This document shows positions 23,233 through 42,825 of a stretch of DNA of 64,000 nt, piece by piece. Within the stretch, counting starts at the first letter, position 1; every line of letters starts with the position of its first letter. This DNA comes from a virus. The stretch covers positions 1-64,000 of the IMG/VR virus record IMGVR_UViG_3300042731_006512; one strand, written 5' to 3'. The position numbers were made by a program, and so were the translations under genes. Below the pieces are notes generated by a model that was given only the letters and a program-made list of their open reading frames with translations, did not search any database and was not told the origin of the DNA.

Positions 23233-23241
23233 ATCTATCTC

Positions 23242-23718: not shown

Positions 23719-23732
23719 CTTCGCATACCTCC

Positions 23733-24068
23733 TTAAACTAAAAGAGCCATCATAAACGGTAAACTTTTAGCTATACTTGAAAATAAAGCTACAGGCGGAA
23801 ATGGTATCTGGTCAGGAATAGGTGTTACAATAGTAGATGGCATCATTTTTACAAAGTCATTCATTTTGACAAATAAACCAGCTTGTCGTATCTGTTCTCC
23901 GGTAGAGATTAATGATAATGGCCCAGAAATACAACAACCTTCTTTACTTGCAGCAAAAAAAGCATTCTTAGCACCTGCCATAATAGCACTTTCTGGAGTT
24001 ACCATAAAACCAGCAACACTTTCTTTATCGGCCTTCCAGATTCTGAACTTACTCTTCGGTGTCGCCAT
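23733..24068 (-). CDS. Hypothetical baseplate-module protein (spike-tip/PAAR position)
   Basis: I start it at the ATG at 24066..24068 (MATPKSKFRIW...), which has a TAAGGAG SD, rather than the track's upstream start. 111 aa. Position between the V-like and W-like genes. Confidence 0.5.
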   Translation of the reverse strand: MATPKSKFRIWKADKESVAGFMVTPESAIMAGAKNAFFAASKEGCCISGPLSLISTGEQIRQAGLFVKMNDFVKMMPSTIVTPIPDQIPFPPVALFSSIAKSLPFMMALLV

Positions 24069-24070
24069 TC
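24047..24070 (-). repeat. 24-nt direct repeat, copy A (start region of gene 23733..24068)
   Basis: GAATGGCGACACCGAAGAGTAAGT matches GAATGGCGACATCGAAAAGTAAAT at 24828..24851 in 21 of 24 positions. The two copies bracket the HNH ORF. Confidence 0.7.
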
Positions 24071-24849: not shown

Positions 24850-24851
24850 TC
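24828..24851 (-). repeat. 24-nt direct repeat, copy B (start region of the HNH gene)
   Basis: See copy A. Both copies contain the ATG and the first seven codons (MATSKSK vs MATPKSK). Confidence 0.7.
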
Positions 24852-24864
24852 TAACCTCTTAAAA

Positions 24865-25284
24865 TCAAAGCGAAACACCCCCAAGAAATATCTTATAAGG
24901 CCCTATTTCAATCTCATTTTGAAGCGGAGCCTTATTTAAAAACTGATGGTCTTCGTCACCAATCACTTCAATAATCACATTCTTAGGACTAAGTTTCCCT
25001 TTATAATAAACTCTCACAACTAAACCTTCCCTTAAAGCACCCCATAAAAGATGTATTTCAGACAAAGGTGTAGATAAAGGTAAAAAGCCATTTGAAATCT
25101 CATCTCCTATTTTACCATCAGAAAGTATTCTTCGCACTCTAACTTGTCCATTGTTATAGTTTATTTCACTGATTATTCCATAAGTTATTCTATCTTCTTC
25201 ATCTTTTGGTAACATACTTTCACGAGATGTCTCGTGAAGCTTTTGCTGTAAAATATTTTTCGGCGCAGCAGAACTATAACCCAT
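24865..25284 (-). CDS. Baseplate spike/hub OB-fold protein (P2 gpV / Mu gp45-like)
   Basis: 139 aa. ITYGIISEINYNNGQVRVRR...FLPLSTP...LREGLVVRVYYKG follows the gpV N-terminal OB-fold pattern. It lies immediately downstream of the hub-containing giant ORF. Confidence 0.45.
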   Translation of the reverse strand: MGYSSAAPKNILQQKLHETSRESMLPKDEEDRITYGIISEINYNNGQVRVRRILSDGKIGDEISNGFLPLSTPLSEIHLLWGALREGLVVRVYYKGKLSPKNVIIEVIGDEDHQFLNKAPLQNEIEIGPYKIFLGGVSL

Positions 25285-28200
25285 TATTCTAAGTCATCTC
25301 CTAAAAACACAGAACTAAAATCTCCTTCTGAATGTCCAAACCAATAGTTATTTTTAAACTTATCGTATGTATCTTCAAGATAAAGAGGTATTGTTTCTGA
25401 AGTCTCTTTAAACCAATCGCCAATACCTTGAATAAAACTTCCATCTGTATATCTATTAGGTAATCCACCTATCATAGGCTTACCAGCACATACAAGAGGA
25501 GAAAATCTAAAAGGATGGGCAAGTTGAGTTCTTGTAACTAACTTTCTAAAAATAAACAATCCAACAGAACCAAATAAAGAAGTTTGTTGGTTATAAGCAG
25601 GAGTATTTTCTGTCTGATTAAAAAACATGCGCGCCAAAGGAGAAAATCCAAAACCACTTATAGGATTAAAAGCAGCAGACAAAATATCTCCATAGTTCTT
25701 ATGGATAGAACCAAGACTCTCTAACCCAATCTGTCTTAAACCATGTTCTGCTATCAATCCCATAGCATCTTGAGTTGATAAGGTGCTTTCTTGGTTAACG
25801 TGAACACATAAATCAGGGGTGATTTCTGTTATAAAACCATTTTTCTGACTAAACTTGTGAACAACTTTTTCTACTTCTACTGGTCCATAAATATCTGAAT
25901 ATTCATCAAAGATATAAATTACATCTAATGGTTTTATCTTCGGATTCCCAACCAAAATCAAACTACCACCATAAGATTCCTTTAATGAGTTATATAACAA
26001 CGACAAAGAATAAAGCTTTGCCATTTCATATCCATTACAGTTAGGATATTGAGCAAACATTTCACGAATATCTTCATCAGGAATAGCAGCATCTGCTTTT
26101 AAAGTAAAAGTTTCTGGGTCTCCAAAGTTAAGCTCAGAAGTATCTTTATTAAACTCAGGTCCATCATCGCTATATTGTAATGTAACAGTATTGAAAACGT
26201 TATGGCCAGAAGAAGAAATAGAGTTGTGTAATATATGAAGAGAGCTTGTTGCTATATGATATGAGCGAAATGGTTTTATAAAACCACGCGCCTGAGCAAA
26301 AAGTTTTGCTGCTTTTTTCAGCCAGTTTTCTATTTCATCATCAGACTGAGAGTTTTCAATCTTTTTTAATGCATTATCTAAATCACGCGCACCTTCTTTA
26401 CCTAACTCTCTACTGGCATCTTGAAGATTTGTTCGCACTTTTTCAGTATAGTCATCGGTTATTCCATTCTTGACAACTTCACGTAACTTACTGATAACAT
26501 TATCTTCTTCCACAGTAGAGTCTCTTGCAAAATATAACTGGTCTGGTAACCCAAAAAACAACGTCATTCTTGGACCATATTTGCTTTCATATGGAACAGC
26601 AGAGGTAATATAGGATGGATGCCTTAATGTCATCTCTTGCAATACATCCCAGATTGTTGTATTGAACATAATATATTTTTTCGAACCTTTCGCAGCTTTC
26701 AATGGGTTAATCAATGCATCAACAAAACCTAATGGACCAGAACCTTGCGGTGGGAACAAGTTATCGTCTCTCGGATTTGGATTAAATCTCCATCTACTTT
26801 GCAATAAACCTCGTTGCTTATTTGCTCCAAAACCACCAGCTTCCCATCTTCCGAAATGAACAACCTCTGGAGCAGATAAAATATTATTCAATACCATCCA
26901 GGTCCGACCATCATCACTAAACCAACCACCAAAAGATTTTGATTCACCCTGTATTGTTTGAACAAGCTCAACAGCAAAACTTTGACATACAATAGTAACT
27001 AAATCAGTAGTTTCAGAAAACTGATATTCAACTATCATACCATTGAATACAGTTTCAAGCTCAGCCGGGTTATTACTAAAGCCCATCTTCAACTGGATTT
27101 GTGTGCCAGCTTGAAGCATCAAAGAAGCAATAGGATTTTCTTTTATTGTATTAACAGAACCACTATCACCTTCTCTTTCTTCAGAAATACTTCCATCTTC
27201 CCTGAAAGCTAAGTTTGGATTTTTAGCATCTATAAACTTGCGATTATTCAAAGAACCAGAAATGTTTGTTAACTGAAGAATACATAAATCGGCTGCTATT
27301 TTTCTGTGCCTAACAACCTGAATCTCTTGAACCGCATTATAAGCAAAAAAATCATCAAAAGCATATTTTTTACGCTCACCAAGGTCGCTTTCTATAAAAT
27401 AAAGTTTAAAAGCAGGGTATGCGCGCATCATTCCATAGCCTGCACCTGTCTTCAAATCTTTCTCAAACTGTTGAACACTCTTATAAAAAAGACTTTCATT
27501 CTCTGGGTCTATTCCCAATAAAGGTCCTTGCGATTTATATTCTCCAACCCCTACAATATGCTCTATCTTTCCAATCTTATGAGTAGAAAAATGTTCTTCT
27601 GCAATAGGGTCTACAGGAACACCATTCTGTCTTATTTCAAAATGTAAATGCGAACCAGTAGAATAGCCAGTATTATCCATTACTCCAATCTGTTGCCCTT
27701 TTCTAACTATTAGAACTCTATCCTTCACAGATTTAGGAACAGGGCTATCCAAAAGTTCATCAAAAAATATATCAAAAAAACCCTGAACAATAGGCTCCCA
27801 TTTCAAATGGCCATATCTTGTTTCATAGCCATTTCCATGTTTTATTCTTACGCGAACACCTCTCTCGTCGTTGTTAACACCTATTATTCTACCTGTTTCG
27901 GCTGCATATATAGGAGTTCCAGCGCTGTCTGCTGGAATATTACCAGCAATATCAATACCAGTATGAAAAACTTCTTTATTCACACCTCTACGCGCCCTTA
28001 CTGGGTCAAGACGCTTACCAAAAGGAGATGTTATTCTTCTAGCAGTAGAAGGTGTCGGAGGAATAAAGACTGGCGTTTTATTCTTGTCAAACACAACCGG
28101 AGAATAAGATTGTTCAGGCAAAAAAGACAAACAATCATATGTATCAAACCTATGAGATACAGACTCAGAGTTAGAAGATGGCCTCATTGTTGTTGGGCTT

Positions 28201-31106
28201 CTATGATTAGATATGACACACTGCGTATCATATTTGCTTTGACGAGATTTAATAATACTTTTTGAAAAAGAGATTCCTTTAACAGGAACACTTTCTCCAT
28301 TTTTATTAGCTTCAAAAACGGACGGCGCAACAGAACCTGTCAATAAGTTGGGAGCTGTGCCATATTCATTTAAATGTTTCTGGTATTCATCTGCATAGTT
28401 TTTACCAGGCGAATTGTCACCTTTAAAAAAATCAGTTTTGAAAGAATCAACAACAGTATCAAAAACATTAGACCTTCTTTGAGACCCTAATATTTCTGTC
28501 TCATAAACGTTTTTAAACCAGTCAGATTCCGCTTCTTTCATAGAAGCACGAGCGGCAATAATGCTATCTTTAGTTTTTTCTATAATATGATGAGGAAAAA
28601 TATCATCTATAACATCAACAGTATGATTTAAAAAATAAAAGTCAGGATTAATAAGAGAAGATATACCAACATTTTTTAAACCCAAACCAGCTTTTTCCCA
28701 AAAAGCAACTAGTCCGTCATATAAAAACGTAGATAAATCAGTATCTTCCTGGATTAAAGACAGAACTTCCCTCAAAGGAAAATCTGGAAAACAATCAGCA
28801 GTATCTATGCCTCCTCTATTATTTCGAATCAAATCTCGAACAGTTTGAAACTGAGGAAGAGACAAAATATCATCATCATTTAATATCCTATCAAGAAAAT
28901 CATTAGCAAAGTTAATCCAATCTCCAAAAATCTTATTAATAAAACCCTGAAGTTTTTTTATATTTTCAGTTTTATATTTATCAAAAAAATCACCTGCTAC
29001 ATTTGGAATAGTCTCTCCAAATCCTATAGAAGACAAAGCTGCTCGCTCATTTCGCTCATTCTCTGCTTTGATAAGGTTTTCAGCATTTTGTTTTATCTCA
29101 GCATCTGTAGTAGCTTTGACATCACCCCCATATATAGTCTGACGTGGCAAAAGACTCAAAGTATCGCGCAACTTTACTGAGCCATTTTTACCAGTAAGGA
29201 CATCATATACTTTAGATAAATCTTCGTTGATTCTTTCTATACCAAAAACATCTTCATCTGTTAATACAGATAAATCACTAACCATCTCAATACCAACATT
29301 GCCATATTTAAGAAATCTTATATGGAACAAAAGATATTCACATATATAACTAAACTTTTCGGCATATTGACTACATAACTCCTTAAATGCCTGACTTTTT
29401 TGTCCAAGTGGACCATTAAAAATATAATATGGAGTTCTAGGATTATCTATTGTTGGAGCAAATGATAAAGGCCTTTCTATGTTTGCTGAATATGGACTAT
29501 CTATAAACGTCTTGTAAGAAGTAGTTTCTTTCCAAAAAGTATCCTTTTCAAGATGCAAAAACTTATCACCATTAAACTTAAGATTTTTTTCTAAAATATG
29601 AGCTATTTCTATTCTAAGGTCCTGCGCGCTAGTAAAGGATTGACCAGGAATAAGTTTTTCTTGTGTTTGAGTAGTCAATGGATTATCTATAAGTGTAAAT
29701 ATAGCACTCCATGTTCCTGGTTCACCTTCTACGTTTTCAACAGAAAGATTTTCTGGCAAGAACTCAGAAAGTCCGCACATATTTACCAAGTCATTATCAA
29801 CAGAAATATTCTTATGACCAGATGGTATATTTCTATATTTATGATGCTGTCCCTCGACTAAAGAATAAAACTCAGAAAGATGACGTATTGCTTTTTGGTC
29901 GACCGTGGCTATAGAAAAAGAAACTCTTGCATCTATACTACCAATATGCTGAAAAGTCGGATATGGATGACCCACCAAAGGAAGAGTTGCAAGTATATTT
30001 TCGAAAGAAATCGAAATACCTTGAACAATCAATCCTATATCATTAAAATCAAGCTCTCTGTCTCGAGATAATAAAATAGTATCTTCTGGGTTATATTGAG
30101 ACAAATCAGCTTCACGTGGCTTTGAAGAAGGTTTTGATTTTATAGTAACGTATTCGCCATTTCTTAAAATAACAGGCTTCCAGCCAAACGCTTCAACAGC
30201 AAATCTACTATCTCTTTTTCCTGGTTCAATAGCCTCTTTTATAAGACTTTTTACTTTATGAAGAACATTCTTGCTGTTTTGCTCATAAAACATAGATGTA
30301 GTATCGCCAAAAATCTCTCTACGCAACGAACGCGCCCAGTTCTCGTCTTTCAGTTCATCAAATAAAACATCACGAATCTTTTCTCCGACTGCAGAACCTT
30401 CTTTATTAGAAGAAAGCTGGGATAACTCGTTGCTTAACTTTTTAAGAGAAGCTACTTCTTTGTCTCGTACTTCAAAATACCTTTTTACTGTCAATGCCTT
30501 ATATTCTTTGAAACTAAGAACCAAACCAGTATGCAACCTATCAACTTGTTTATACTTATGGCGTCTCTGTTCTGCCTGATACATTAACTGCCAAGGTTTA
30601 CTGTCAGCAGGATTCTTAACAGCTTCAGTTCCCATTAGATTTTTCTTATAAAGAAAGTCGCGCATAAACGGAAAATAGTTAAACCAACAAAAATGAAAGT
30701 TTACAACAATAACATTTGTACTTCTGTCGTCGGTTCCTGCAGTAATCTCCATCTGTTTTAAAGCCAAGGCCATTGACTGATGTGAATGTCCAGCGAAAAA
30801 CTTATCTCTTAAAAAACTATTCTCTACATAACAAAACGGAGTCACACGAAACTGAGATATTAAATCACGAAGTTGTCGAAATCCATTTCTTGTTGAACCA
30901 AGAGGTGCACCAGAAACCAACTCGTCTATAAACTCAACTGTTATATATATATCAGCAGTTGAAAATCCAGACTTAGATTTAATCGAAGACTGAGTTCTTA
31001 ATGTTTGCCATTGATTATTAAAAGACTGTCTATCTACACGAATATTTTTTGGAGGAATATCCAAAATCTGATTATTAAACTGGAATAAAGAACTATATTC
31101 AGCCAT
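25284..31106 (-). CDS. Giant multidomain tail protein: unknown N-terminal part, M23 metallopeptidase, and C-terminal gpD/gp27-like baseplate hub region
   Basis: 1940 aa. M23 motifs HTGIDIAG (about 27945..27965) and GSHLHFEIRQNGVPVDP (about 27600..27650). A later segment, QLKMGFSNNPAELETVFNGMIVEYQF...TIVCQSFAVEL (about 27020..27105), resembles late-control-D/hub proteins. Synteny places a hub upstream of the V-like spike. Confidence 0.65.
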   Translation of the reverse strand: MAEYSSLFQFNNQILDIPPKNIRVDRQSFNNQWQTLRTQSSIKSKSGFSTADIYITVEFIDELVSGAPLGSTRNGFRQLRDLISQFRVTPFCYVENSFLRDKFFAGHSHQSMALALKQMEITAGTDDRSTNVIVVNFHFCWFNYFPFMRDFLYKKNLMGTEAVKNPADSKPWQLMYQAEQRRHKYKQVDRLHTGLVLSFKEYKALTVKRYFEVRDKEVASLKKLSNELSQLSSNKEGSAVGEKIRDVLFDELKDENWARSLRREIFGDTTSMFYEQNSKNVLHKVKSLIKEAIEPGKRDSRFAVEAFGWKPVILRNGEYVTIKSKPSSKPREADLSQYNPEDTILLSRDRELDFNDIGLIVQGISISFENILATLPLVGHPYPTFQHIGSIDARVSFSIATVDQKAIRHLSEFYSLVEGQHHKYRNIPSGHKNISVDNDLVNMCGLSEFLPENLSVENVEGEPGTWSAIFTLIDNPLTTQTQEKLIPGQSFTSAQDLRIEIAHILEKNLKFNGDKFLHLEKDTFWKETTSYKTFIDSPYSANIERPLSFAPTIDNPRTPYYIFNGPLGQKSQAFKELCSQYAEKFSYICEYLLFHIRFLKYGNVGIEMVSDLSVLTDEDVFGIERINEDLSKVYDVLTGKNGSVKLRDTLSLLPRQTIYGGDVKATTDAEIKQNAENLIKAENERNERAALSSIGFGETIPNVAGDFFDKYKTENIKKLQGFINKIFGDWINFANDFLDRILNDDDILSLPQFQTVRDLIRNNRGGIDTADCFPDFPLREVLSLIQEDTDLSTFLYDGLVAFWEKAGLGLKNVGISSLINPDFYFLNHTVDVIDDIFPHHIIEKTKDSIIAARASMKEAESDWFKNVYETEILGSQRRSNVFDTVVDSFKTDFFKGDNSPGKNYADEYQKHLNEYGTAPNLLTGSVAPSVFEANKNGESVPVKGISFSKSIIKSRQSKYDTQCVISNHRSPTTMRPSSNSESVSHRFDTYDCLSFLPEQSYSPVVFDKNKTPVFIPPTPSTARRITSPFGKRLDPVRARRGVNKEVFHTGIDIAGNIPADSAGTPIYAAETGRIIGVNNDERGVRVRIKHGNGYETRYGHLKWEPIVQGFFDIFFDELLDSPVPKSVKDRVLIVRKGQQIGVMDNTGYSTGSHLHFEIRQNGVPVDPIAEEHFSTHKIGKIEHIVGVGEYKSQGPLLGIDPENESLFYKSVQQFEKDLKTGAGYGMMRAYPAFKLYFIESDLGERKKYAFDDFFAYNAVQEIQVVRHRKIAADLCILQLTNISGSLNNRKFIDAKNPNLAFREDGSISEEREGDSGSVNTIKENPIASLMLQAGTQIQLKMGFSNNPAELETVFNGMIVEYQFSETTDLVTIVCQSFAVELVQTIQGESKSFGGWFSDDGRTWMVLNNILSAPEVVHFGRWEAGGFGANKQRGLLQSRWRFNPNPRDDNLFPPQGSGPLGFVDALINPLKAAKGSKKYIMFNTTIWDVLQEMTLRHPSYITSAVPYESKYGPRMTLFFGLPDQLYFARDSTVEEDNVISKLREVVKNGITDDYTEKVRTNLQDASRELGKEGARDLDNALKKIENSQSDDEIENWLKKAAKLFAQARGFIKPFRSYHIATSSLHILHNSISSSGHNVFNTVTLQYSDDGPEFNKDTSELNFGDPETFTLKADAAIPDEDIREMFAQYPNCNGYEMAKLYSLSLLYNSLKESYGGSLILVGNPKIKPLDVIYIFDEYSDIYGPVEVEKVVHKFSQKNGFITEITPDLCVHVNQESTLSTQDAMGLIAEHGLRQIGLESLGSIHKNYGDILSAAFNPISGFGFSPLARMFFNQTENTPAYNQQTSLFGSVGLFIFRKLVTRTQLAHPFRFSPLVCAGKPMIGGLPNRYTDGSFIQGIGDWFKETSETIPLYLEDTYDKFKNNYWFGHSEGDFSSVFLGDDLE

Positions 31107-34100: not shown

Positions 34101-35437
34101 CCAAAATCTCTGCGCCAAGCTTGTGTTTCAAATATAGACCATTTCGAAGAACCAGATGTTAACATTTCAGATACAGCCTTATCGCTGGCTCTCCATTGTC
34201 TTAAAGCTTGACGAGGTTGTCTTGCCCAATCTATATCTTCTGGTGTCATAAACCATTCAGAAGCATTAAAACTGCTGACACGTCCTTTCGCTAAGTTAAC
34301 AGGACTTGCAAAAGGAAATAGTTCTGGACGAGACATAACTGCTTTAAACTGTTCCTCAGTTGGTCGACTATAAACAGAACGAAATACTTCTCCAGGTCTA
34401 AGCTCCGCCAGCTTTCCTTCTGTAACTATATCAAGTCCTTGACCCTTAATACGTTGATAGCTTTTCCAAGCAGGAGAAAGTAGATTTTCTGGAAGATTTG
34501 GGATAGATTCTAAAGCATAAATATTTCTTTCATATGCAGTACTAATAGCTCTTTCTATATCATATCTTGAAGTATACTCTCCACTCGCTATTCTTGGTAA
34601 TATTGATTGCTGTATATCTCGAAGCAAAAACTCATGTCTTGATAGTCTATTCATCTGGCCAGTTCTTGGGTCAAAAATACCTACATCTGGAGCAATCCTT
34701 CTTGCTGATTGAGTAAGACCTTCTATTAACACTCCACCGCGTGCAACAGGAACAGTAATATCAAACGGGATCTTGCCTTTCATAAAAGACATTACATAAG
34801 TCCCATGTTGCTGCCAGCCTTGTCGAGTATAGTATCTTACACCAGTACTTGTTAAACCTGCATCCTTAACAAAAGATTTATGAAAAGAAGCTATCTCCGC
34901 AGGCAGTTGATTAATAGAAACATTTCTTGGAGCAGGAAACGTTAATCCTTCGACAGTTTTAAACTTTGGAATATTACCAGTTAGTTCATAATGTTTTCTT
35001 AATGAAGCAACATTACTTTTGAACTTATTATATATGCGCGCCATAAAAATAGAGTTATTTCTTTGAAGTGTTTGTTCTATAGAAGACATAACCTTAGTTG
35101 TTGGAGCAGTTTTGATGTCACCAGCAAAAGAAAGAACATTTGAAGCTAATGGGTCGGTAGACTGAACAGCCTCAATCCAGGCAGTTCTTGCAAGCTCTGG
35201 CTGTGTTTTAAACAGTTGTTGATTTTGACCTAAAAAAGACAAGTCTATTCCAGAGTTAGAAGATAAACTACTCTTTTGAAGAGTACCTATAAACCCAGAT
35301 GTAGACATAGGCTTAGGAAAAGTGAAGTATCCTTTATCTGCCATTTTTCTAACAGATGAAGAAACTCCATATGATAATGGAGCAGCAACAGCAAGACCTT
35401 TTAAGGCATTAAATCTATCGTCTTTATTATTAGGCAT
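31106..35437 (-). CDS. Giant protein with RNA polymerase beta-prime-like double-psi beta-barrel catalytic core (candidate divergent RNAP)
   Basis: 1443 aa. Collinear motifs: FGKGEGAIARGQLLGSRF (32684..32737), VGIPQYIGEQMF, AADIKSVQEMNKR, WRHPIAGPYSAQ, IELSPMVGMGMDLDADIASV (DLDAD at 32330..32344), and KKIADALKLATGQQWIGRL (32108..32158). These parallel E. coli beta-prime [15 protein letters not shown] / CGLPKKMALELF / ATTIKAAKKMVER / NRAPTLHRLGIQ / [22 protein letters not shown] / [21 protein letters not shown]. Confidence 0.5.
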   Translation of the reverse strand: MPNNKDDRFNALKGLAVAAPLSYGVSSSVRKMADKGYFTFPKPMSTSGFIGTLQKSSLSSNSGIDLSFLGQNQQLFKTQPELARTAWIEAVQSTDPLASNVLSFAGDIKTAPTTKVMSSIEQTLQRNNSIFMARIYNKFKSNVASLRKHYELTGNIPKFKTVEGLTFPAPRNVSINQLPAEIASFHKSFVKDAGLTSTGVRYYTRQGWQQHGTYVMSFMKGKIPFDITVPVARGGVLIEGLTQSARRIAPDVGIFDPRTGQMNRLSRHEFLLRDIQQSILPRIASGEYTSRYDIERAISTAYERNIYALESIPNLPENLLSPAWKSYQRIKGQGLDIVTEGKLAELRPGEVFRSVYSRPTEEQFKAVMSRPELFPFASPVNLAKGRVSSFNASEWFMTPEDIDWARQPRQALRQWRASDKAVSEMLTSGSSKWSIFETQAWRRDFGNYATPWMPTVYVDPVKHGQMLEQLGMKEGEALIANVPSFRRQLGVVGQPFPIHLGSVAEGVAERIFKRDVFQVGEVLGQTPEGKSVIFQRGMELLGLQPFETTARGQEFSLMYRQALAPEMAAKRFGGYKAVEKFIDPFRLEKAFAQTGLDITQLEGRFRVVSMDELTKDAVKLNTQVITGLWEKIRRDRSKNFIQHNQRLAAFMRNPRVYSSFMRRKYGPQGFMEQMMGLAVKEVGLEPEEFGTIFGALSPEAYQGVIPQEFAKQMTGISFGLSQGILHEPMAMTGAGALGSIEPRVFDVLKGGQYGPLGESMSTELARRLALSNPETLATYEGLTKTLASLAGKTGSTKGAALWDIGIKGYSNEAFQQFIESGGGFLRVGAGYKDIFVPGADVLTPYKTPAGKYIPGVLAMEYHGLAREMSKLTLQSKRVDLEAAGNVVNNFVRNIMTHQAPFGKGEGAIARGQLLGSRFLRGVSETGGHKAPGVMTVGIPQYIGEQMFEDLASITGAADIKSVQEMNKRFLAGQSIGGMIWRHPIAGPYSAQPINIQMMKDIREPVVVMPSVSVDIGMKNPIELSPMVGMGMDLDADIASVSLVSPDLEKNIRKGFTYADNQYTQAYMEHMVRAQIIKTKAAGGAELLATQEKKIADALKLATGQQWIGRLSLQMHGAKQAAVQRLKGQQAANVAFTLNWLEESIIKSKHLSRQKVLSDEMSVLLAKAESAFQAKDPVRLEQVIRNMLAESDEVSRALLDQEVRIPKNIERIREITGVKSMRDVLPAVNIKETTRDMMNAMEWAETTGLEEMSRIASARKAPSITNLGKYLSFTGSVLSSSKGAFTGVSEGFMRAKNFAASMGMGLIEHKKALGWGLAGSLAIGLALSKPEDLIGSGADLVPNAKTVTDFNKATQKMTAENILPPEAPLGEPTVPSIMVTPSARILPGAENRNINIRARSSSRTNAEDMVRKYRRSVSFNRMNVNVRDNRSRLSKYDIADRILT

Positions 35438-38400
35438 CTAAAGCTTGCAAAAGTAACTCTTGTTCCTCTTCTGTTCTATCTTCTTCTATATCTAAGTTTA
35501 TAGAAACTTCTTCTTTTGGTGCAGTACTTGTTGAAATAAATACATCTCCTTTCATTTTATCAGCAAAAAGCAACTCGTTAATACGAGATTTCATTTCTTC
35601 ACTTGTTAATCTTTCTTGGTTAATAAGCGGCTCTATAGCTTCTTCATCTATAAATGGTTTGTATGGTAACTCTTTTTCTCTGGATGGCCAAAGATTTAAA
35701 GGAATAGGCTCTTCTCCTAAGTGTTGAACAAGTTTCAGTTTCACATCTTCAAGGTCTACGCTTGGATTGAACGCAACCCAATCCGGCCCAGGAATACCTT
35801 CAACTCCACTTAATATTTTAACTCTACGATACCAATCAGCATAGTTTTCACCAGGATACTTAGTTTTTAAATATTCAGCAAATAACTCATCTGATATAGG
35901 GAAACCTTCAGTTTTTGCTTCCTTATATACAGCATCAATCTTTTTGTCAGCTTCAACTTCTTCTGCTTCAGAAAAAATACCAGCTTTTACAGCCTTCTTC
36001 AAATCTCCAGCGTGAACTAACTTCCAACGAGCTATATATAAAGATTTTTCATTTTCAGGAACCATTTCTAAAATACGTTGTCTTTCTTCAATAGTATCCG
36101 CTTTCTCAAAAGCAGAAAAATAATCTCTTTCTCTTCTTGGTAATGCGCGATAAAGTGAAGAATAGTTACGGGTAAATGGATTTATACCAAACAAAGTTTC
36201 ATCTTTATTTTTTTCGAACTCTTTAACTGCTTCTGTATCTCCTACCATGCGCGCCAGATTTGAAAGTCTGGCATTCTTTACATATTTAAGAATATCAAAA
36301 TAGTTTTCTAAATCGCGCGTCTGTTGAGAAGCCTCAGGTACTCCCTCGTATCCAAACGTGTGAGCAATAGAACGAGCAAACGGAGCAAGAAAATGAGACA
36401 CTGGATGTTGCCAAAATGCCGATGACTGTCCATATAAAATCTCTCTTTCATAACTTTCAATAGGTGTTCTCATATGAACTAACTTTGCTCCAGGAGAAAT
36501 AGGTGTCAACTGGTCAAAAGCAGTTTCAGCATTATGAGCAAGTAGTTCCCAATATCCACCAAAGAACTTTTTAAATAAAGACGGTTTTTCTTCTCGAGAA
36601 GCTTTCCATTCATTCATTTTAGCTATAAGTTCAGAACTCTCTTGTTTCGCGCCAGGAAAAACTTCTCCCATAGAAGATAAATATTTGTATTCTTGAAACT
36701 CTACTCTTTGTTTCTTTTGCTTTACTTGTTTGAGAGTTGTTTGATAAATATCTTCTTCGTAGTCAGTCCAATCTTTAGATGCTCGTTTGGCACGTATCTT
36801 TTGGAGAGATTGTTTATATTTATCACTATACATTGCAACATCAGAAAGTATTTTGAACTGATGAATCAATGGATAATCACCTGGTTCTATATCCTTAAGC
36901 TCTGGATAAAGCTCAGCATATCCAGGCCCTGGCAACCTAATCTCACCCATTGGCACTTTATTAAAATAATATCCCGTACTAAAATCAGGTGCTTTCTCAC
37001 CAGGCCCAGGAAGCCATTCTGGAGCACCTGAAGGTATTGGGTTAACTAAATCCACTTGGTGTCTTCGATGAGGAAATAATCGACGAATCGGTTCAGTTAA
37101 ACCAAAAGGGTCACCAAGTTCTTTTTCCCAATACCACCTTTCAACACCAAAAACACGACGAGCACTTTCTAACTGCGCCAACTGGTCAAACCAATCTTGG
37201 CTCCCAGTTATTTTTTCTTTGATTGCCGCAGTCGTAAAACCAGTCAAACCAATCATTTCTGTGCCAACCCTATATATCTGCTCACCAATAATAGACTGAG
37301 CAGAATATGGAGATACAGGTATTCCTTGAGGTACTTGACCAGCTTCAGTAGCTATTCTTGCTCCAAAAGACGGCGACTGAGTTTTTACACCTTTATCAGA
37401 AAACCAATGTTCTGTATTTAAATATAGTTCTGGTTTTATCCAACGACCAACAGTTGCCGAAAGTATAGGGCCAAGAAACGGAACATCTTCAAAAGGCAAC
37501 GAACTCACTGGAAAATATGGATGCCTTTTTTCTATCTCATAAGTAAACTCTTGCTTGTACCATCTTTCTATAGGACTAAGCTTTTCCAGGTCTTCGCCCC
37601 ATATTACTCTTTCTCTTCCCTGTTTTTTAAGTAAAGGTATCCAATGCTGACGAAAATATTGAACTCTTTCTCCTTCTGCTGGACTACGCCCGAATAGCCA
37701 ATAGCGACCTTTCCTTATAGGAACTTCCTGTTTTCCAGAATATATATCTTTAAGTTCTTCAGAGGATGTTTGAGGAAATAGCGCGCCAGGTAAAAAAGGA
37801 AGAACAGCAGCCAATCCTATACCAGCACCTAAAGCCATTCCAAATCTTGTTGGAGTATTTATTTTTTTAGCTAATCTTCCAAGAAGTCCACCTGACTTAC
37901 TTTCTAAAACTCGACCAATATTTTCGCCAAAAGTTCCAAAGTGTTTCCAAGATTTAAAAGCTTCATCCATTCTATGTCTCGCCATAGAAGCAGAAATACC
38001 TTCTGATATTTGAAGATGTGCCATTCCTCCTATTTTTCCAAAATAAGACAACGCGCCGACACCAAAAGCACCCATTATTGGAAAAGCAGCCAGTTTTAAA
38101 AGAGATGTACTACCAGGAGCTATTTCTTCTTGTTTGCGCGCATAATCAGACAAACCAAGACTTTCTGATATTTGAGCAGTTTTTATATGCGCTGCAGCAG
38201 GAATAGAAGCCAAGCCATAACTTATACCTTCAGAAAATAAAGTCTCATCAAATAACTCTGATTTTCTTGTATACCAATCAAGCGTTTCATAGCCTAAAGA
38301 TAAAGCCCCAAGGCCTAAACCAAACTTAGCAGTAAATCTTCCAAGCATAGAAAGCCCACCACCAGGTTTTATAGCAAGACGCTTACCTACAACAGGAAAC

Positions 38401-39179
38401 ATTGTCAGTAAACGATTAAATCTACTTATTTGTTCTGTTCCTAAAGCACCAAGTTTTCTCCAAGTATGTTGGAAAATATTTCTTCCACCTATAATCTGGG
38501 CTGGATATCCTTCTATAAGCGGATTCAATATATCTGGATATCTATCTTTTAAAGGAGCCGCAGCAGCAAAAAATCTTTCAAAAGGTGGATTGCCTCTTAG
38601 TTCTCTAAGTCCAAGCCTTCGAGCGTAAGCTGCCCCTATATAAGAAGCTTCACCAAGACCAGCAGTTCTAATAGCTGAAGCATACTTAAGTGCTACGTCT
38701 GGACCTTGACCCCAAAAAAGCCTACCAGAACGTAAGGTAACTCCTTCTTTTAAAAGCCGAGAATAAGCATCTCCACCAATAAGTTTTGATAAATATTCAG
38801 CTTGTTGACGATTTGTCTTAAGAAGCTCAGGTCCTACAAATAGATTTGCCTGTCGAACAGATGTTTCAAAACCTGAAAATATTGATGATGACTGAAATGT
38901 CCGAAATATTCTTGCTGGAGAATATTCTTCTAATGCACGCAGACCTTTAACATAATAATCCCAAACGTGTCCTCCTTTAAAAGGAACATATCCAAAAGCA
39001 GCAATACCACCTACACCAGCAACAAAAGAAGCAAAGTTAGAAAACTGTTTCGAAACTGGTCGGGCTGGTATTTGTGGATAGTTAGACCAACGTTCTGGTT
39101 GGTCTCGAGGGTCTGTTAAAGATGGACCATAATAAGCTCGTGCAGCAGAAAGATTAGTTGTAAATGGAAATCGGGCCAC
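35430..39179 (-). CDS. Giant tail-module protein with Gly/Ala-rich hydrophobic N-terminal helices (tape-measure or ejection-protein candidate)
   Basis: 1249 aa. N-terminal hydrophobic segments FVAGVGGIAAFGYVPF, FGLGLGALSLGY, LAAFPIMGAFGVGALSYFG and MALGAGIGLAAVLPFLPGALF; acidic C-terminus. It overlaps the next ORF by 8 nt. It follows the chaperone-like genes, where a tape measure is expected. Confidence 0.4.
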   Translation of the reverse strand: MARFPFTTNLSAARAYYGPSLTDPRDQPERWSNYPQIPARPVSKQFSNFASFVAGVGGIAAFGYVPFKGGHVWDYYVKGLRALEEYSPARIFRTFQSSSIFSGFETSVRQANLFVGPELLKTNRQQAEYLSKLIGGDAYSRLLKEGVTLRSGRLFWGQGPDVALKYASAIRTAGLGEASYIGAAYARRLGLRELRGNPPFERFFAAAAPLKDRYPDILNPLIEGYPAQIIGGRNIFQHTWRKLGALGTEQISRFNRLLTMFPVVGKRLAIKPGGGLSMLGRFTAKFGLGLGALSLGYETLDWYTRKSELFDETLFSEGISYGLASIPAAAHIKTAQISESLGLSDYARKQEEIAPGSTSLLKLAAFPIMGAFGVGALSYFGKIGGMAHLQISEGISASMARHRMDEAFKSWKHFGTFGENIGRVLESKSGGLLGRLAKKINTPTRFGMALGAGIGLAAVLPFLPGALFPQTSSEELKDIYSGKQEVPIRKGRYWLFGRSPAEGERVQYFRQHWIPLLKKQGRERVIWGEDLEKLSPIERWYKQEFTYEIEKRHPYFPVSSLPFEDVPFLGPILSATVGRWIKPELYLNTEHWFSDKGVKTQSPSFGARIATEAGQVPQGIPVSPYSAQSIIGEQIYRVGTEMIGLTGFTTAAIKEKITGSQDWFDQLAQLESARRVFGVERWYWEKELGDPFGLTEPIRRLFPHRRHQVDLVNPIPSGAPEWLPGPGEKAPDFSTGYYFNKVPMGEIRLPGPGYAELYPELKDIEPGDYPLIHQFKILSDVAMYSDKYKQSLQKIRAKRASKDWTDYEEDIYQTTLKQVKQKKQRVEFQEYKYLSSMGEVFPGAKQESSELIAKMNEWKASREEKPSLFKKFFGGYWELLAHNAETAFDQLTPISPGAKLVHMRTPIESYEREILYGQSSAFWQHPVSHFLAPFARSIAHTFGYEGVPEASQQTRDLENYFDILKYVKNARLSNLARMVGDTEAVKEFEKNKDETLFGINPFTRNYSSLYRALPRRERDYFSAFEKADTIEERQRILEMVPENEKSLYIARWKLVHAGDLKKAVKAGIFSEAEEVEADKKIDAVYKEAKTEGFPISDELFAEYLKTKYPGENYADWYRRVKILSGVEGIPGPDWVAFNPSVDLEDVKLKLVQHLGEEPIPLNLWPSREKELPYKPFIDEEAIEPLINQERLTSEEMKSRINELLFADKMKGDVFISTSTAPKEEVSINLDIEEDRTEEEQELLLQALDA

Positions 39180-39180
39180 A

Positions 39181-40071
39181 CTACTTCTTCCTCAGCTTTC
39201 TCCTATTTTCTTCCAAACGCTTTTTAGCTTCAGCTATTCTTTGGTCTTCACTTTTAATCTTAATCTTCTCACCCTTTTTCAAAGCTTCAAGATAATCTCC
39301 AAATATAACCTTAGCGTCTTCCATCATTTGACTTTCAACAGGAGAATCAGAAGTAGGGTCAGCATCCAGATTATACATAAGTTCACGTCCAGAAATAACA
39401 GTATCTCCATTTTTATCAGTATCATTAAAAGAAGGAGTTTCATTCTCAACTGTCATTCCAGGACTCTTAGTACCTTGTTGACGTAACTTTCTAAGATTCC
39501 ATTCTTCTTCTTGTTGTCTATATTCTTCACTAAGTTTAGATAAATCTACTTTGTGTTGTTTTCTTGGTTTCTTTGTGTTTTTATTTTCAAAATCAAATGG
39601 TTCAGATAGTATACCAGTATCTAATAGTTTTCTTTCGGCCAGTGCGAAAAGAAAGAAAATCTCCTGAATGTCCTTTCTTAATAAATCATCGGGAGTATAA
39701 CTATACGCTAAACATATAGTATTAATCAGTTGATATAAACTATTGTCTACAACAGAACGATTATAGTTAAGAAAATAACCCAGTTCTTCTTGAGAGTTAG
39801 GAGCTGAATATTGAAGAATGGTATTTGCTACAGTTGTTGGTGTTCCTGCTTTTTGCTGATAAATATTATCTATTAAAACTTCATCTTTCACACATTTAGT
39901 AAAAATCTCATTTTCTATTACCCAAGAAGGAATAATATCTGAAGATAATATCTTTGAATAAGTGAAAAAATCTGAAAGAGATAAAAGAGAGAACGGAACT
40001 ACTAATCCATCAGGAAGTTCTAAAACAAAAACTGAGCCATATCTTTCGCGTAAATCTGCTGGATTTCGCAC
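39181..40071 (-). CDS. Putative tail assembly chaperone-like protein with charged C-terminal extension
   Basis: 296 aa. The N-terminal YGSVFVLELPDGLVVPFSLLSLSDFF...KAGTPTTVANTIL is similar in pattern to the preceding 139-aa ORF. Position between the tube genes and the giant ORFs. Confidence 0.3.
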   Translation of the reverse strand: MRNPADLRERYGSVFVLELPDGLVVPFSLLSLSDFFTYSKILSSDIIPSWVIENEIFTKCVKDEVLIDNIYQQKAGTPTTVANTILQYSAPNSQEELGYFLNYNRSVVDNSLYQLINTICLAYSYTPDDLLRKDIQEIFFLFALAERKLLDTGILSEPFDFENKNTKKPRKQHKVDLSKLSEEYRQQEEEWNLRKLRQQGTKSPGMTVENETPSFNDTDKNGDTVISGRELMYNLDADPTSDSPVESQMMEDAKVIFGDYLEALKKGEKIKIKSEDQRIAEAKKRLEENRRKLRKK

Positions 40072-40087
40072 AAAATAAAACTTATCC

Positions 40088-42794: not shown

Positions 42795-42825
42795 ATTATT
42801 CTATCATACGATATTCTATCTGCTA

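What the first reader, a model, noticed from the sequence alone, without database searches (positions are those of the whole stretch)
25284..39179. Three consecutive giant ORFs (1249 + 1443 + 1940 aa, about 13.9 kb) occupy the tape-measure position
Contractile-tail modules normally have a single tape-measure gene between the chaperone genes and the baseplate hub. Here there are three translationally coupled giants totalling 4632 aa (8-nt overlap at 35430..35437, 1-nt overlap at 31106). None shows the long uninterrupted heptad character of a classical tape measure. One looks like a polymerase, and one carries a cell-wall hydrolase plus a hub. This resembles the cargo/ejection protein blocks of podoviruses (T7 gp14-16, N4 vRNAP, crAss-like cargo proteins), yet it lies inside a myovirus-type tail operon.
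Basis: partly seen in the sequence, partly recalled or inferred. Interest (0 to 1): 0.65.

Follow-up and report, generated by a model that had tools for sequence, protein, structure and literature searches.

The report
Giant three-gene tail-core block, polymerase-like middle
The three huge genes are a conserved tail-core module already known from Bacillus phage 0305phi8-36-type giant phages, but its middle, tape-measure-position protein keeps an invariant RNA-polymerase-like metal-binding motif, so it may be an injected polymerase.

Summary
Three overlapping minus-strand ORFs of 1249, 1443 and 1940 aa lie between the sheath/tube genes and the baseplate genes.

The arrangement is not unique. 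The same triad occurs in Bacillus phage 0305phi8-36 (gp145/146/147), Acinetobacter phage ME3 (gp035/036/037) and five metagenomic lineages.

- **G1** belongs to the gp145 virion-protein family. It has a confident compact fold with no known relative, three hydrophobic segments, and homologs carrying inteins at six or more sites. It is not tape-measure-like.
- **G3** is the enlarged baseplate hub (gp147 ortholog) with an M23 peptidase.
- **G2** sits in the gp146 "tape measure" slot. It shares the C-terminal roughly 50-aa module and a hydrophobic segment just before it.

Across eight lineages, the only invariant G2 residues are G524 and a DxDxD triad. The triad lies 37-51 aa after a conserved R-x-P, which is the signature of two-barrel RNA polymerases. 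The precedent is Thermus phage P23-45, whose tape measure carries a virion RNA polymerase.

Homology to known RNA polymerases is not statistically shown: best hhalign P = 0.056, Foldseek E ≥ 0.25, and the G2 model is poor. The block is therefore a known kind, and the polymerase reading is a plausible but unproven new variant.

The parts
43503..45413 (-). Tail sheath gene; marks the start of the contractile-tail operon upstream of the block.
   Evidence: PHROG tail sheath families, E 1e-78.
40857..43479 (-). Three tube-type paralogs (217, 382 and 250 aa).
   Evidence: All three hit phrog_9206, which also holds 0305phi8-36 gp140/141, noted in that record as tail tube and tube paralog although the product line reads 'major head protein'.
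39181..40804 (-). Three small ORFs (98, 139 and 296 aa) in the position of the tail-assembly chaperones (0305phi8-36 gp143/144).
   Evidence: Assigned by position only. No family hit, and no paralogy between the 139-aa and 296-aa ORFs.
35430..39179 (-). G1, 1249 aa: member of the gp145/ME3 gp035 virion-protein family. It has a compact new fold, and homologs are rich in inteins.
   Evidence: tblastn to ME3 gp035 (2e-61) and 0305phi8-36 gp145. 116 homolog clusters. AlphaFold model of aa 50-1249 has pLDDT 84 and pTM 0.78. No PDB match, and only its own family in BFVD. Inteins occur at six or more sites in homologs.
37776..39035 (-). N-terminal part of G1 holding three Gly-rich hydrophobic, TM-like segments (aa 49-67, 360-378, 450-468).
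   Evidence: Kyte-Doolittle window scores 1.6-1.9. Equivalent segments occur in gp035 and gp145.
31106..35437 (-). G2, 1443 aa: the middle giant, positional equivalent of the 0305phi8-36 gp146 'tape measure'.
   Evidence: Synteny in seven other lineages. Family of 256 clusters at 50% identity, mostly 1430-1600 aa long.
32330..32497 (-). G2 aa 981-1036: R981-x-P983...S989, then 51 aa to D1032-x-D1034-x-D1036. This is the family's invariant acidic triad and resembles the two-barrel RNA polymerase (beta'-type barrel) signature.
   Evidence: D1032, D1034 and D1036 are invariant in 21 sequences from 8 lineages; P983 and S989 are at least 90% conserved. The same composite motif is in 67 of 67 genuine phage two-barrel RNAPs and in 1 of about 53 unrelated large ORFs. 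The top hhalign alignment to the gp99/YonO profile falls exactly here, P = 0.056.
33710..33730 (-). G2 aa 570-576 (K-R-F-G-G-Y-K): a conserved basic pair, candidate for the second barrel's basic residues (unproven).
   Evidence: K570 and K576 are each K in 17 of 21 sequences. hhalign did not pair this segment with the gp99-family R293/K298 motif.
31109..31507 (-). G2 C-terminal hydrophobic segment (aa 1311-1329) and the conserved terminal module (aa 1390-1443). Inferred to be the membrane and hub-docking end, as in tape measures.
   Evidence: The C-terminal module matches the C-terminus of 0305phi8-36 gp146 (hhalign E 7e-5; hmmsearch 3.5e-9). A hydrophobic segment of Kyte-Doolittle score >=1.4, roughly 100-130 aa before the end, occurs in the middle giants of ME3, L007, L008 and L009; G2's own segment (aa 1311-1329) scored below that threshold and was identified by eye and by alignment, and gp146 has none.
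25284..31106 (-). G3, 1940 aa: enlarged baseplate hub protein, ortholog of 0305phi8-36 gp147 and ME3 gp037.
   Evidence: Collinear BLASTP segments with gp147. tblastn to ME3 gp037 at 4e-37. gp147 was assigned as a T4 gp27/P2 gpD homolog by Hardies et al. 2007.
27597..28058 (-). M23 zinc peptidase domain of G3 (aa about 1017-1170).
   Evidence: Pfam PF01551 at 2e-20. PDB M23 peptidases down to 3e-18 with the family profile.
25752..27431 (-). G3 hub core (aa 1226-1785), shared with gp147.
   Evidence: BLASTP: 1226-1521 matches gp147 849-1167 (2e-18) and 1692-1785 matches 1335-1428 (9e-12). Pfam and PDB sequence searches did not detect it independently.
22012..25284 (-). Downstream baseplate genes: a 139-aa ORF in the gpV/spike position, an HNH endonuclease, a 123-aa ORF, a gp25/W-like gene and a Baseplate_J gene.
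   Evidence: Pfam Baseplate_J at 1e-16. PHROG baseplate and HNH hits. The 139-aa ORF shows no similarity to gp148.

Best explanation
The block is the tail-lumen and hub module of a 0305phi8-36/ME3-type jumbo myovirus. Shown: the order G1-G2-G3 is conserved in all eight lineages examined. G1 is a gp145-family protein, and gp145 was found in 0305phi8-36 virions by mass spectrometry. G3 is the gp147-type enlarged hub with an M23 peptidoglycan peptidase. G2 occupies the gp146 slot and shares with gp146 only the C-terminal roughly 50 residues. All middle giants except gp146 keep an invariant DxDxD triad 37-51 residues after an R-x-P motif, at 71-79% of their length. Inferred: G2 is the tape-measure-equivalent protein. 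It would sit in the tube lumen, docked by its C-terminus to the G3 hub, and be expelled on contraction. Its N-terminal roughly 1,100 residues would be a very divergent single-chain two-barrel RNA polymerase, delivered with the DNA to transcribe the first genes, as shown for the tape-measure-fused polymerase of Thermus phage P23-45. G1 is compact and carries three hydrophobic segments. It is most likely a second hub-proximal or ejected protein that acts at the host membrane. Its function is otherwise unknown, and it is not the length ruler. G3 cuts peptidoglycan at the tail tip.
For: - **Synteny and orthology:**
- **Published roles of gp145-147:**
- **C-terminal module shared by G2 and gp146:**
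- **Hydrophobic segments:**
- **G1 fold:** compact (pTM 0.78) with no tape-measure-like match.
- **Invariant triad:** with 21 sequences from 8 lineages, only G524, D1032, D1034 and D1036 are invariant.
- **Motif variants:** DFDGD, NADHDGD, DSDGD, DYDGD and DLDAD, matching the DxDGD of known enzymes.
- **Motif specificity:** the composite motif is found in 67 of 67 real phage two-barrel RNAPs, in 1 of about 53 unrelated large ORFs, and in 0.3% of shuffles.
- **hhalign placement:** in five of the six profile comparisons with a known two-barrel RNAP, including the best-scoring one, the top alignment falls on this motif (best P = 0.056); in the sixth (A9 vs gp96) it lay downstream.
- **Foldseek:** the weak G2 model's top hits are almost all RNAP beta' chains.
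- **Complementary distribution:** the one lineage whose middle giant lacks the motif, 0305phi8-36, encodes a separate RdRP/YonO-type RNAP, gp99. This parallels P23-45 relatives.
- **Precedent:**
Against: - **No significant similarity:** the G2 family shows no statistically significant sequence or profile similarity to any RNA polymerase in Pfam, PDB, the YonO/gp99 family or P23-45 gp96.
- **Flanks:** sequence flanking the motif is no more similar to the gp99/YonO family than random placements (z = 0.7 and -0.1).
- **Second barrel:** it was not detected by hhalign.
- **Weak structural evidence:** the G2 model is poor (pLDDT 50, 8-sequence alignment), and the Foldseek hits have E 0.25-0.8.
- **Motif noticed by eye:** it was seen before it was tested, so part of its weight is post hoc.
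- **Atypical tape measure:** G2 has mixed alpha/beta prediction, 13.5% Pro+Gly and little heptad signal.
- **Chaperones:** no chaperone genes were recognisable upstream.
- **No direct data:** there are no virion or activity data for this phage.
Confidence: 0.55

Rival explanations
1. G2 is simply this lineage's tape measure. Its invariant DxDxD triad is a non-polymerase metal site, either a structural Ca2+/Mg2+ site or another enzyme activity such as a hydrolase used during penetration. Under this reading the resemblance to RNA polymerases is coincidental.
For: There is no significant profile or structural similarity to any RNA polymerase. Tape measures commonly carry embedded enzymatic domains. 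The C-terminal module and hydrophobic segment fit an ordinary tape-measure role.
Against: The triad comes with a conserved R-x-P at the spacing seen in real two-barrel RNAPs. It also shows the G/A preference at position 4 and NAD-type prefixes in several lineages. It lacks the Gly at position 6 expected of DxDxDG calcium loops (sequence). The Foldseek top hits are RNAP beta' chains and not hydrolases. No hydrolase family was detected.
Confidence: 0.3
2. G1, or G1 together with G2, is the true length-determining protein. G2 would be a cargo enzyme that merely travels in the tail or head, so the triad would contain two lumen proteins and not one tape measure.
For: G1 lies directly after the chaperone-position ORFs. 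It is the most widely conserved of the three. It has hydrophobic segments like many tape measures. In 0305phi8-36, gp146 alone (2537 aa) as an alpha-helix would span only about 380 nm, against a tail of about 500 nm.
Against: G1 is confidently predicted to be compact and globular (pTM 0.78), with 2% heptad-like windows. G1 length varies less than middle-giant length (1249-2158 aa vs 1443-3144 aa). The module shared with the gp146 C-terminus is in G2 and not in G1.
Confidence: 0.1
3. The three giants are podovirus-style ejection or cargo proteins (like T7 gp14-16 or crAss cargo), stored in the capsid and unrelated to tail assembly.
For: The proteins are large, G1 and G2 have hydrophobic segments, G3 has a peptidoglycan hydrolase, and G2 has a polymerase-like motif.
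Against: No homology to those proteins was found. G3 is the ortholog of a baseplate hub. The genes are embedded between tube and baseplate genes in every lineage. A contractile tail needs a tape measure and a hub, and no other candidates exist in the window.
Confidence: 0.05

Closest known systems
Bacillus phage 0305phi8-36 gp145-gp146-gp147 (Thomas 2007; Hardies 2007, PMC2147016) and Acinetobacter phage ME3 gp035-036-037
   Same: The gene order and context are the same. G1 is homologous to gp145 and gp035. G3 is collinear with the hub gp147 and with gp037. G2 shares the C-terminal module with gp146, and it shares the K..K, R-x-P and DxDxD motifs and the C-terminal hydrophobic segment with ME3 gp036.
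   Different: Apart from the C-terminal roughly 50 aa, G2 has no detectable similarity to gp146, and gp146 lacks the acidic triad. The M23 domain is internal in G3 but C-terminal in gp147. G1 is 1249 aa against 1930 aa. Published work did not note any polymerase-like motif in these middle giants.
Thermus phage P23-45 gp96, a tape-measure protein fused to a two-barrel virion RNA polymerase (Chaban et al. 2024, PMC10770324)
   Same: It is a giant protein in the tape-measure slot. It has an R-x-P...DxDGD signature (FRNPVMG...38 aa...DFDGD) with TM segments downstream. Outside the motif it has almost no sequence similarity to other RNAPs. Relatives that lack the fusion keep only a separate non-virion RNAP, which parallels 0305phi8-36 gp146 plus gp99.
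   Different: P23-45 is a siphovirus and its protein is 5,002 aa. Its RNAP core (aa 327-1124) is followed by about 3,800 aa of tape measure, whereas G2 is 1443 aa with the triad at 72% of its length. No significant similarity was found. G2 has no metallopeptidase domain; the peptidase is in G3. Activity is proven for gp96 and untested here.
YonO (SPbeta) and 0305phi8-36 gp99: RdRP-type single-chain two-barrel RNA polymerases
   Same: The composite motif is the same (YonO LRSPHLF...DNDGD; gp99 FRSPLIH...DTDGD). The top hhalign alignment pairs R981, P983 and the D triad with gp99 R529, P531, D573, D575 and D577.
   Different: The similarity is not significant (P = 0.056-0.56). The flanks and the upstream barrel do not align. 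These enzymes are about 840-1250 aa, are encoded among early or non-structural genes, and are not part of the tail module.
crAss-like phage phi14:2 gp66 and N4 vRNAP (virion RNA polymerases within giant ejected proteins)
   Same: The concept is the same: a giant virion protein that carries a polymerase into the cell.
   Different: They are podoviruses whose cargo is stored in the capsid. No homology was detected. N4 vRNAP is of the T7 type and not two-barrel (established knowledge).
Tape measure and hub proteins with lytic domains (T5 pb2, SPbeta YomI, T4 gp5/gp27, P2 gpD)
   Same: G3 combines a hub core with a cell-wall peptidase. The M23 region hits tape-measure and endolysin PHROGs and SPbeta yomI.
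   Different: G3 is about five times the size of T4 gp27. Its hub core was not detectable here with Pfam or PDB sequence profiles.

Membership tests
0305phi8-36-type tail-core triad (gp145/gp146/gp147) | The first giant is homologous to gp145. | tested here: met
   tblastn to gp145 (4e-9) and ME3 gp035 (2e-61). Foldseek in BFVD hits A7KUR9, which I take from the accession to be a 0305phi8-36 protein (the table gives it no name), at 7e-10.
0305phi8-36-type tail-core triad (gp145/gp146/gp147) | The middle giant sits in the same slot and has the conserved C-terminal module. | tested here: met
   hhalign E 7e-5. hmmsearch 3.5e-9 to gp146 aa 2459-2519. The remainder of the protein is not alignable.
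0305phi8-36-type tail-core triad (gp145/gp146/gp147) | The third giant is homologous to the hub gp147. | tested here: met
   Several collinear BLASTP segments, best 2e-18.
0305phi8-36-type tail-core triad (gp145/gp146/gp147) | Synteny: sheath, tube paralogs, small ORFs, the triad, then V/W/J-type baseplate genes. | tested here: met
Tail tape measure protein (applied to G2) | Gene lies between the tail chaperone genes and the hub gene. | tested here: inconclusive
   G2 lies directly upstream of the hub gene, but G1 intervenes after the chaperone-position ORFs. Those ORFs show no chaperone homology, frameshift signal or paralogy.
Tail tape measure protein (applied to G2) | Long, predominantly alpha-helical or heptad sequence. 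| tested here: not met
   5% periodic windows against 11.5% in the gp96 tape-measure part, none longer than about 50 aa. Mixed alpha/beta in the low-confidence model.
Tail tape measure protein (applied to G2) | Hydrophobic segment(s) and a conserved C-terminus co-varying with the hub. | tested here: met
Tail tape measure protein (applied to G2) | Protein length proportional to tail length. | not testable with these tools
   No micrographs exist for this phage. Middle-giant length varies from 1443 to 3144 aa among lineages, which is compatible but not a test.
Two-barrel (double-psi beta-barrel) RNA polymerase, including tape-measure-fused vRNAP | Invariant DxDxD metal-binding triad. | tested here: met
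   D1032, D1034 and D1036 are invariant in 21 sequences from 8 lineages.
Two-barrel (double-psi beta-barrel) RNA polymerase, including tape-measure-fused vRNAP | Conserved R-x-P about 35-50 aa upstream of the triad (beta'-type barrel). | tested here: met
   R981 in 18 of 21 and P983 in 19 of 21 sequences, at spacing 37-51 aa. The same pattern is in 64 of 64 YonO/RdRP loci plus gp99, YonO and gp96.
Two-barrel (double-psi beta-barrel) RNA polymerase, including tape-measure-fused vRNAP | Significant sequence or profile similarity to a known member. | tested here: not met
   Best hhalign P = 0.056. Pfam and PDB gave nothing. The flank test was negative. Known families often fail this test against each other.
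Two-barrel (double-psi beta-barrel) RNA polymerase, including tape-measure-fused vRNAP | Second barrel supplying two conserved basic residues. | tested here: inconclusive
   K570 and K576 (17 of 21 each) and K615 are conserved upstream, but hhalign did not align this region to the gp99-family barrel.
Two-barrel (double-psi beta-barrel) RNA polymerase, including tape-measure-fused vRNAP | Double-psi beta-barrel fold with a bridge helix. | tested here: inconclusive
   The model has pLDDT 50. Foldseek top hits are RNAP beta' chains but at E 0.25-0.8.
Two-barrel (double-psi beta-barrel) RNA polymerase, including tape-measure-fused vRNAP | Template-dependent RNA synthesis and presence in virions. 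| not testable with these tools
   This needs biochemistry and proteomics. Only 0305phi8-36 gp146, which lacks the motif, is known to be in virions.
T4 gp27 / P2 gpD baseplate hub (applied to G3) | Recognisable gp27/gpD hub domains. | tested here: inconclusive
   Not detected by Pfam or by the PDB profile search. Inferred from orthology to gp147, which Hardies et al. linked to gp27/gpD by HHsearch.
Peptidase M23 (applied to G3) | Match to the M23 domain model. | tested here: met
   PF01551 at 2e-20, above the gathering score. PDB M23 hits.
Podovirus ejection/cargo proteins (T7 gp14-16, crAss cargo, N4 vRNAP) | Sequence or fold homology to those proteins. | tested here: not met
   No PHROG, phage-database, PDB or BFVD match of that kind.

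The most novel reading that the evidence does not exclude
The middle giant (the G2 family: at least 256 clusters at 50% identity, plus ME3 gp036 and other very divergent lineages) would be a previously unrecognised family of single-chain two-barrel RNA polymerases built into the tape-measure-position protein of contractile-tailed jumbo phages. A polymerase would then be injected through the tail of a myovirus, extending the single P23-45 siphovirus precedent to a widespread lineage. G1 would be a second, new-fold, intein-rich partner protein delivered with it.
Probability: 0.5. Interest if true: 0.8.

Novelty: new variant of a known kind. Interest (0 to 1): 0.6.

Why it matters
If the polymerase reading is correct, fusing a virion RNA polymerase to the tape measure is not a curiosity of one Thermus siphovirus. 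It would be a recurrent solution used by a large, mostly uncultured lineage of jumbo myoviruses.

This would explain how such phages start transcription independently of the host. It would add a new, extremely divergent branch to the two-barrel polymerase superfamily. It would also raise the question of how a roughly 160-kDa enzyme is stored in and expelled from a contractile tail.

The idea can be tested directly, because ME3 is a cultivable Acinetobacter baumannii phage that carries the motif.

Independently of that reading, G1 is a large conserved virion protein with a confident fold unlike anything solved, and it is an unusual hotspot for inteins.

If the polymerase reading is wrong, the block remains an ordinary member of the known 0305phi8-36-type tail module.

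Tried and rejected
- **Direct family searches.** Pfam, PHROGs and PDB sequence searches with G1 and G2 as single sequences and as profiles (A1, A4, A5, A6, A9) gave nothing meaningful beyond the M23 domain of G3.
- **Phage database.** tblastn of G2 against the phage database found no match.
- **hhalign against known polymerases and middle giants.** The G2 family was compared with YonO, gp99, a gp99+YonO alignment, a 37-sequence YonO/RdRP profile built from IMG/VR loci, and P23-45 gp96. In every comparison except A9 vs gp96 the top alignment fell on the DxDxD motif, but with P = 0.056-0.56.
- **Tests designed to avoid circularity.** Both were negative: flank similarity with the motif residues removed, and alignment of the upstream half to find the second barrel.
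- **G2 structure.** The alignment used was too shallow (8 sequences), giving pLDDT 50. The prediction quota was then exhausted, so the deep family alignment could not be used.
- **G1 as a tape measure.** Rejected because of its compact, confident model and the absence of tape-measure matches.
- **G1 as an enzyme (suggested by the inteins).** The invariant residues are mostly W, P, G, Y and F, with no recognisable catalytic motif. This remains open.
- **Split G/GT chaperone paralogy** between the 139-aa and 296-aa upstream ORFs: not found.
- **Spike assignment.** The 139-aa downstream ORF shows no similarity to the gp148 gpV-like spike.
- **Co-occurrence test.** The IMG/VR scan with the G2 alignment failed because no stretch was conserved enough, so co-occurrence of G2-type genes with gp99-type genes could not be tested genome-wide.
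- **Thomas et al. 2007 proteomics paper** was not available.

Full report
**1. Observation**

The ORF listing shows three consecutive minus-strand ORFs exactly as reported: G1 39179..35430 (1249 aa, GTG start), G2 35437..31106 (1443 aa) and G3 31106..25284 (1940 aa).

- G1 and G2 overlap by 8 nt.
- G2 and G3 share one base (TAATG), as do G3 and the next ORF.
- G1 begins 2 nt after the previous ORF.
- Promoter-like and terminator-like sites in 24-41 kb do not exceed the shuffled expectation.
- All genes in the window are on the minus strand, with uniform negative GC skew.

The genomic context is a contractile-tail operon:

- sheath (45413..43503);
- three tube-type paralogs;
- three small ORFs;
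- the three giants;
- a 139-aa ORF, an HNH endonuclease and a 123-aa ORF;
- a gp25/W-like gene and a Baseplate_J gene.

**2. The block is conserved and already described**

G1 and G3 have homologs in a small set of isolated phages: Acinetobacter phage vB_AbaM_ME3, Bacillus phages 0305phi8-36, Edson and WH1, and Moorella phage MTATph1 (G3 alone also in Bacillus phage KLEB27-3). The annotated records show the same triad:

| Phage | First giant | Middle giant | Third giant |
|---|---|---|---|
| 0305phi8-36 | gp145, 1930 aa, virion protein by mass spectrometry | gp146, 2537 aa, 'hypothetical tape measure', mass-spectrometry positive | gp147, 1903 aa, hub with peptidoglycan-degrading domains |
| ME3 | gp035, 1263 aa | gp036, 1603 aa | gp037, 2329 aa |

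Hardies et al. 2007 made three relevant statements:

- gp147 is a 'hyperplastic' homolog of T4 gp27 and P2 gpD.
[quoted passage not shown] That intervening gene is orf145, and no function was proposed for it.

Five metagenomic loci reached through G1 homologs show the same order:

| Locus | Giant lengths (aa) | Notes |
|---|---|---|
| L007 | 1270 / 1451 / 1930 | |
| L008 | 1631 / 1596 / 1895 | |
| L009 | 2158 / 3144 / 3012 | third giant has an Endonuclease_NS domain |
| L075 | 2001 / 1655 / 3079 | extra 240-aa gene between the first two giants; NLPC_P60 in the third giant |
| L076 | 1618 / 1746 / 3679 | |

'Three giants in the tape-measure position' is therefore a lineage trait and not an anomaly of this genome.

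**3. G3**

- Pfam finds an M23 peptidase at about aa 1017-1170 (2e-20). PDB M23 enzymes match it.
- BLASTP against gp147 gives collinear segments: N-terminal domain 17-161 and 360-461; core 1226-1521 (2e-18); 1610-1686; and 1692-1785.
- The M23 domain is internal in G3 but C-terminal in gp147.
- Pfam and the PDB profile search did not detect the hub core independently.

The hub assignment therefore rests on orthology, the published analysis and gene position.

**4. G1**

- G1 has no Pfam, PHROG or PDB sequence match.
- Its family is large: 116 clusters at 24-89% identity, many on contigs of about 200 kb.
- Many members carry inteins. Insertions map after G1 positions of about 498, 558, 694, 720, 739 and 1134, all in the conserved C-terminal two-thirds.
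- With a 41-sequence alignment, AlphaFold2 gives a confident compact model of aa 50-1249 (pLDDT 83.9, pTM 0.78).
- Foldseek finds nothing in the PDB (best E about 1).
- In BFVD it finds only the protein's own family. That includes A7KUR9 (from its accession apparently a 0305phi8-36 protein) and a protein labelled 'Large polyvalent protein associated domain'. Tape measures appear only at E above 0.1.
- G1 has three Gly-rich hydrophobic segments (aa 49-67, 360-378, 450-468), with counterparts in gp035 and gp145.
- The invariant residues are mainly W, P, G, Y and F.

G1 is a conserved folded virion protein of unknown function. It is not a length ruler. A membrane-active, hub-proximal or ejected role is an inference.

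**5. G2: what is shown**

- The word-indexed search found only 11 relatives. The exhaustive profile search found 256 clusters at 50% identity, 169 of them at E < 1e-30, and most full-length members are 1430-1600 aa long.
- G2 has no detectable similarity to gp146 or ME3 gp036 over most of its length.
- The last roughly 50 residues of the family do match the gp146 C-terminus (hhalign 7e-5; hmmsearch 3.5e-9). This echoes the published observation that only the last 60 residues align between gp146 and its prophage counterparts.
- The middle giants of ME3, L007, L008 and L009 have a hydrophobic segment roughly 100-130 aa before the C-terminus (Kyte-Doolittle ≥1.4), and ME3, L007 and L008 have another near the N-terminus. 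G2's own C-terminal segment (aa 1311-1329) falls just below that threshold and was identified by eye and by alignment; gp146 has none.

The most conserved element is `WRHPIAGPYSAQ` ... 51 aa ... `GMGMDLDADIAS`. When the alignment is widened step by step, almost everything else drops out.

- With 21 sequences from eight lineages (A9), the only invariant residues are G524, D1032, D1034 and D1036.
- P983, S989, E741 and K1148 are at least 90% conserved.
- R981 is present in 18 of 21 sequences.

The motif as it appears in other middle giants, always at 71-79% of protein length:

| Protein | Motif |
|---|---|
| L007 | `RHPIIGQYS`...`GDLDGD` |
| L008 | `RHPIQSAPY`...`SDDDKD` |
| L009 | `NRYPNIIDRSVQ`...`NGDSDGD` |
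| L075 | `TRWPVIYKGS`...`NADHDGDAIMTLLMH` |
| L076 | `WQNPQIGPES`...`SSDFDGD` |
| ME3 gp036 | `SREPAQGTMSSQ`...`GGDHDQD` |

Only 0305phi8-36 gp146 lacks it.

**6. G2: the polymerase reading**

R-x-P followed 35-50 residues later by DxDGD is the signature of the beta'-type double-psi barrel of two-barrel RNA polymerases. I recognised it first from memory and then tested it.

Evidence in favour:

- (a) Genuine enzymes fetched here show the same pattern: YonO `LRSPHLF`...`FDNDGD`, 0305phi8-36 gp99 `FRSPLIH`...`ADTDGD`, and P23-45 gp96 `FRNPVMG`...`VDFDGD`.
- (b) The regular expression `R.P.{30,55}D.D.D` matches 64 of 64 YonO/RdRP-type loci from IMG/VR.
- (c) In five of the six profile-profile comparisons with known polymerases the top alignment fell on this motif. 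The best, A9 against gp99 family plus YonO, covers 68 columns, scores 30.5 and has P = 0.056. In the sixth (A9 vs gp96) the top alignment lay just downstream.
- (d) Foldseek with the G2 model returns almost only bacterial RNAP beta' chains at the top.
- (e) The one lineage without the motif, 0305phi8-36, has a separate early-region RdRP-type RNAP, gp99 (Pfam RdRP 1e-18).
- (f) There is a direct precedent. The 5,002-aa tape measure of Thermus phage P23-45 has an active two-barrel virion RNAP (core aa 327-1124). Its authors found it by searching virion proteins for DxDxD. They note that many two-barrel families share no significant similarity beyond that motif, and that relatives without the fusion keep only the non-virion polymerase.

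Evidence against:

- No comparison reaches significance (P = 0.056-0.56).
- Pfam and PDB profile searches find nothing.
- Once the motif residues are removed, the flanks are no more similar to the YonO/gp99 family than random placements (z = 0.7 and -0.1).
- The upstream half does not align to the second barrel, although a conserved basic pair, K570 and K576, exists.
- The G2 model is poor (pLDDT 50) and the Foldseek E-values are 0.25-0.8.
- The distribution argument rests on a single lineage.

I put the probability that G2 contains a two-barrel polymerase core at about one half.

**7. G2 as the tape measure**

In favour:

- its position next to the hub gene;
- the C-terminal module shared with gp146;
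- the hydrophobic segment before the C-terminus;
- middle-giant length varying from 1443 to 3144 aa between lineages while staying mostly within 1430-1600 aa in the G2-type clade;
- the absence of any other candidate in the window.

Against:

- a weak heptad signal (5% of windows, against 11.5% for the tape-measure part of gp96 and 0.3% for its RNAP part);
- 13.5% Pro+Gly;
- beta-rich predicted segments.

A composite protein, with an enzymatic N-terminal roughly 1,100 aa and a helical, hydrophobic, hub-docking C-terminal roughly 350 aa, fits both sets of facts and matches the P23-45 architecture in kind.

One published figure deserves note. The 0305phi8-36 tail is about 500 nm long. That is longer than 2537 aa of alpha-helix, which would span about 380 nm. 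The ruler relationship in this lineage is therefore not simple.

**8. Verdict**

The block itself is a known feature of the 0305phi8-36/ME3 lineage, and the podovirus-cargo analogy has no homology support.

Two things are new. First, the middle giants of nearly all lineages, forming a large and mostly uncultured family, retain a polymerase-type catalytic signature as almost their only invariant feature. Second, G1 is a new-fold protein that is a hotspot for inteins. The polymerase reading is plausible, has a precedent and can be tested in the cultivable phage ME3, but it is not demonstrated here.

Noticed in passing
G1 homologs P0019, P0022, P0024, P0026, P0032, P0036, P0049, P0062, P0065, P0088, P0104, P0107, P0110 (relative to window 35430-39179): Many G1-family proteins carry one or two inteins (Hint/LAGLIDADG domains). 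They are inserted at six or more independent sites (after G1 aa about 498, 558, 694, 720, 739 and 1134). The window's own G1 has no intein. So many insertion sites in a virion protein of unknown function is unusual.
   Followed up: partly
window 24049-24849 (-): An HNH endonuclease ORF (266 aa) sits between the hub/spike-position genes and the baseplate wedge genes. It is probably a mobile homing endonuclease inside the tail operon.
   Followed up: no
L075 16036-16758: In one related lineage a 240-aa gene with DUF723/CapR-type hits is inserted between the G1 and G2 homologs. It interrupts an otherwise invariant adjacency and may be another mobile element.
   Followed up: no
L009 26030-26477 onward; L075 21736 onward; L001 22269-27980: The third giant (hub) swaps its enzymatic cargo between lineages: M23 in the window, ME3 and 0305phi8-36; Endonuclease_NS in L009; NLPC_P60 in L075. 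The M23 domain also changes position (internal in G3, C-terminal in gp147).
   Followed up: partly
window 40857-43479 (-); L001 3319-5661: The tube proteins and their paralogs fall in phrog_9206, which is annotated 'major head protein'. RefSeq also names 0305phi8-36 gp140/141 and ME3 gp030 'major head protein', although the notes say tail tube. This looks like a propagated misannotation.
   Followed up: partly
window 47766-49370 (-): A 534-aa ORF upstream of the sheath gene ends in a Peptidase_S74 (endosialidase-type intramolecular chaperone) domain. That is typical of self-cleaving tail fibres or spikes, yet it lies on the head-proximal side of the tail genes.
   Followed up: no
L006 39027-42683 (0305phi8-36 gp99) and loci L011-L073: RdRP/YonO-type single-chain RNAP genes are common on SPbeta-size (about 100-140 kb) and about 40-kb viral contigs in IMG/VR. 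All 64 recovered carry R-x-P...DxDxD. One relative (P0292) is annotated on a 206-kb Paenibacillus 'plasmid', which may be a phage-plasmid or a jumbo prophage.
   Followed up: no
0305phi8-36 (literature) vs L001 14624-22237: The 0305phi8-36 tail is about 500 nm, while gp146 (2537 aa) as an alpha-helix would span only about 380 nm. The published tape-measure assignment 'by length correlation' is therefore loose.
   Followed up: no
window 39181-40804 (-): The three small ORFs in the chaperone position show no similarity to known tail assembly chaperones. They also lack the gp143/gp144-type shared domain reported for 0305phi8-36.
   Followed up: partly
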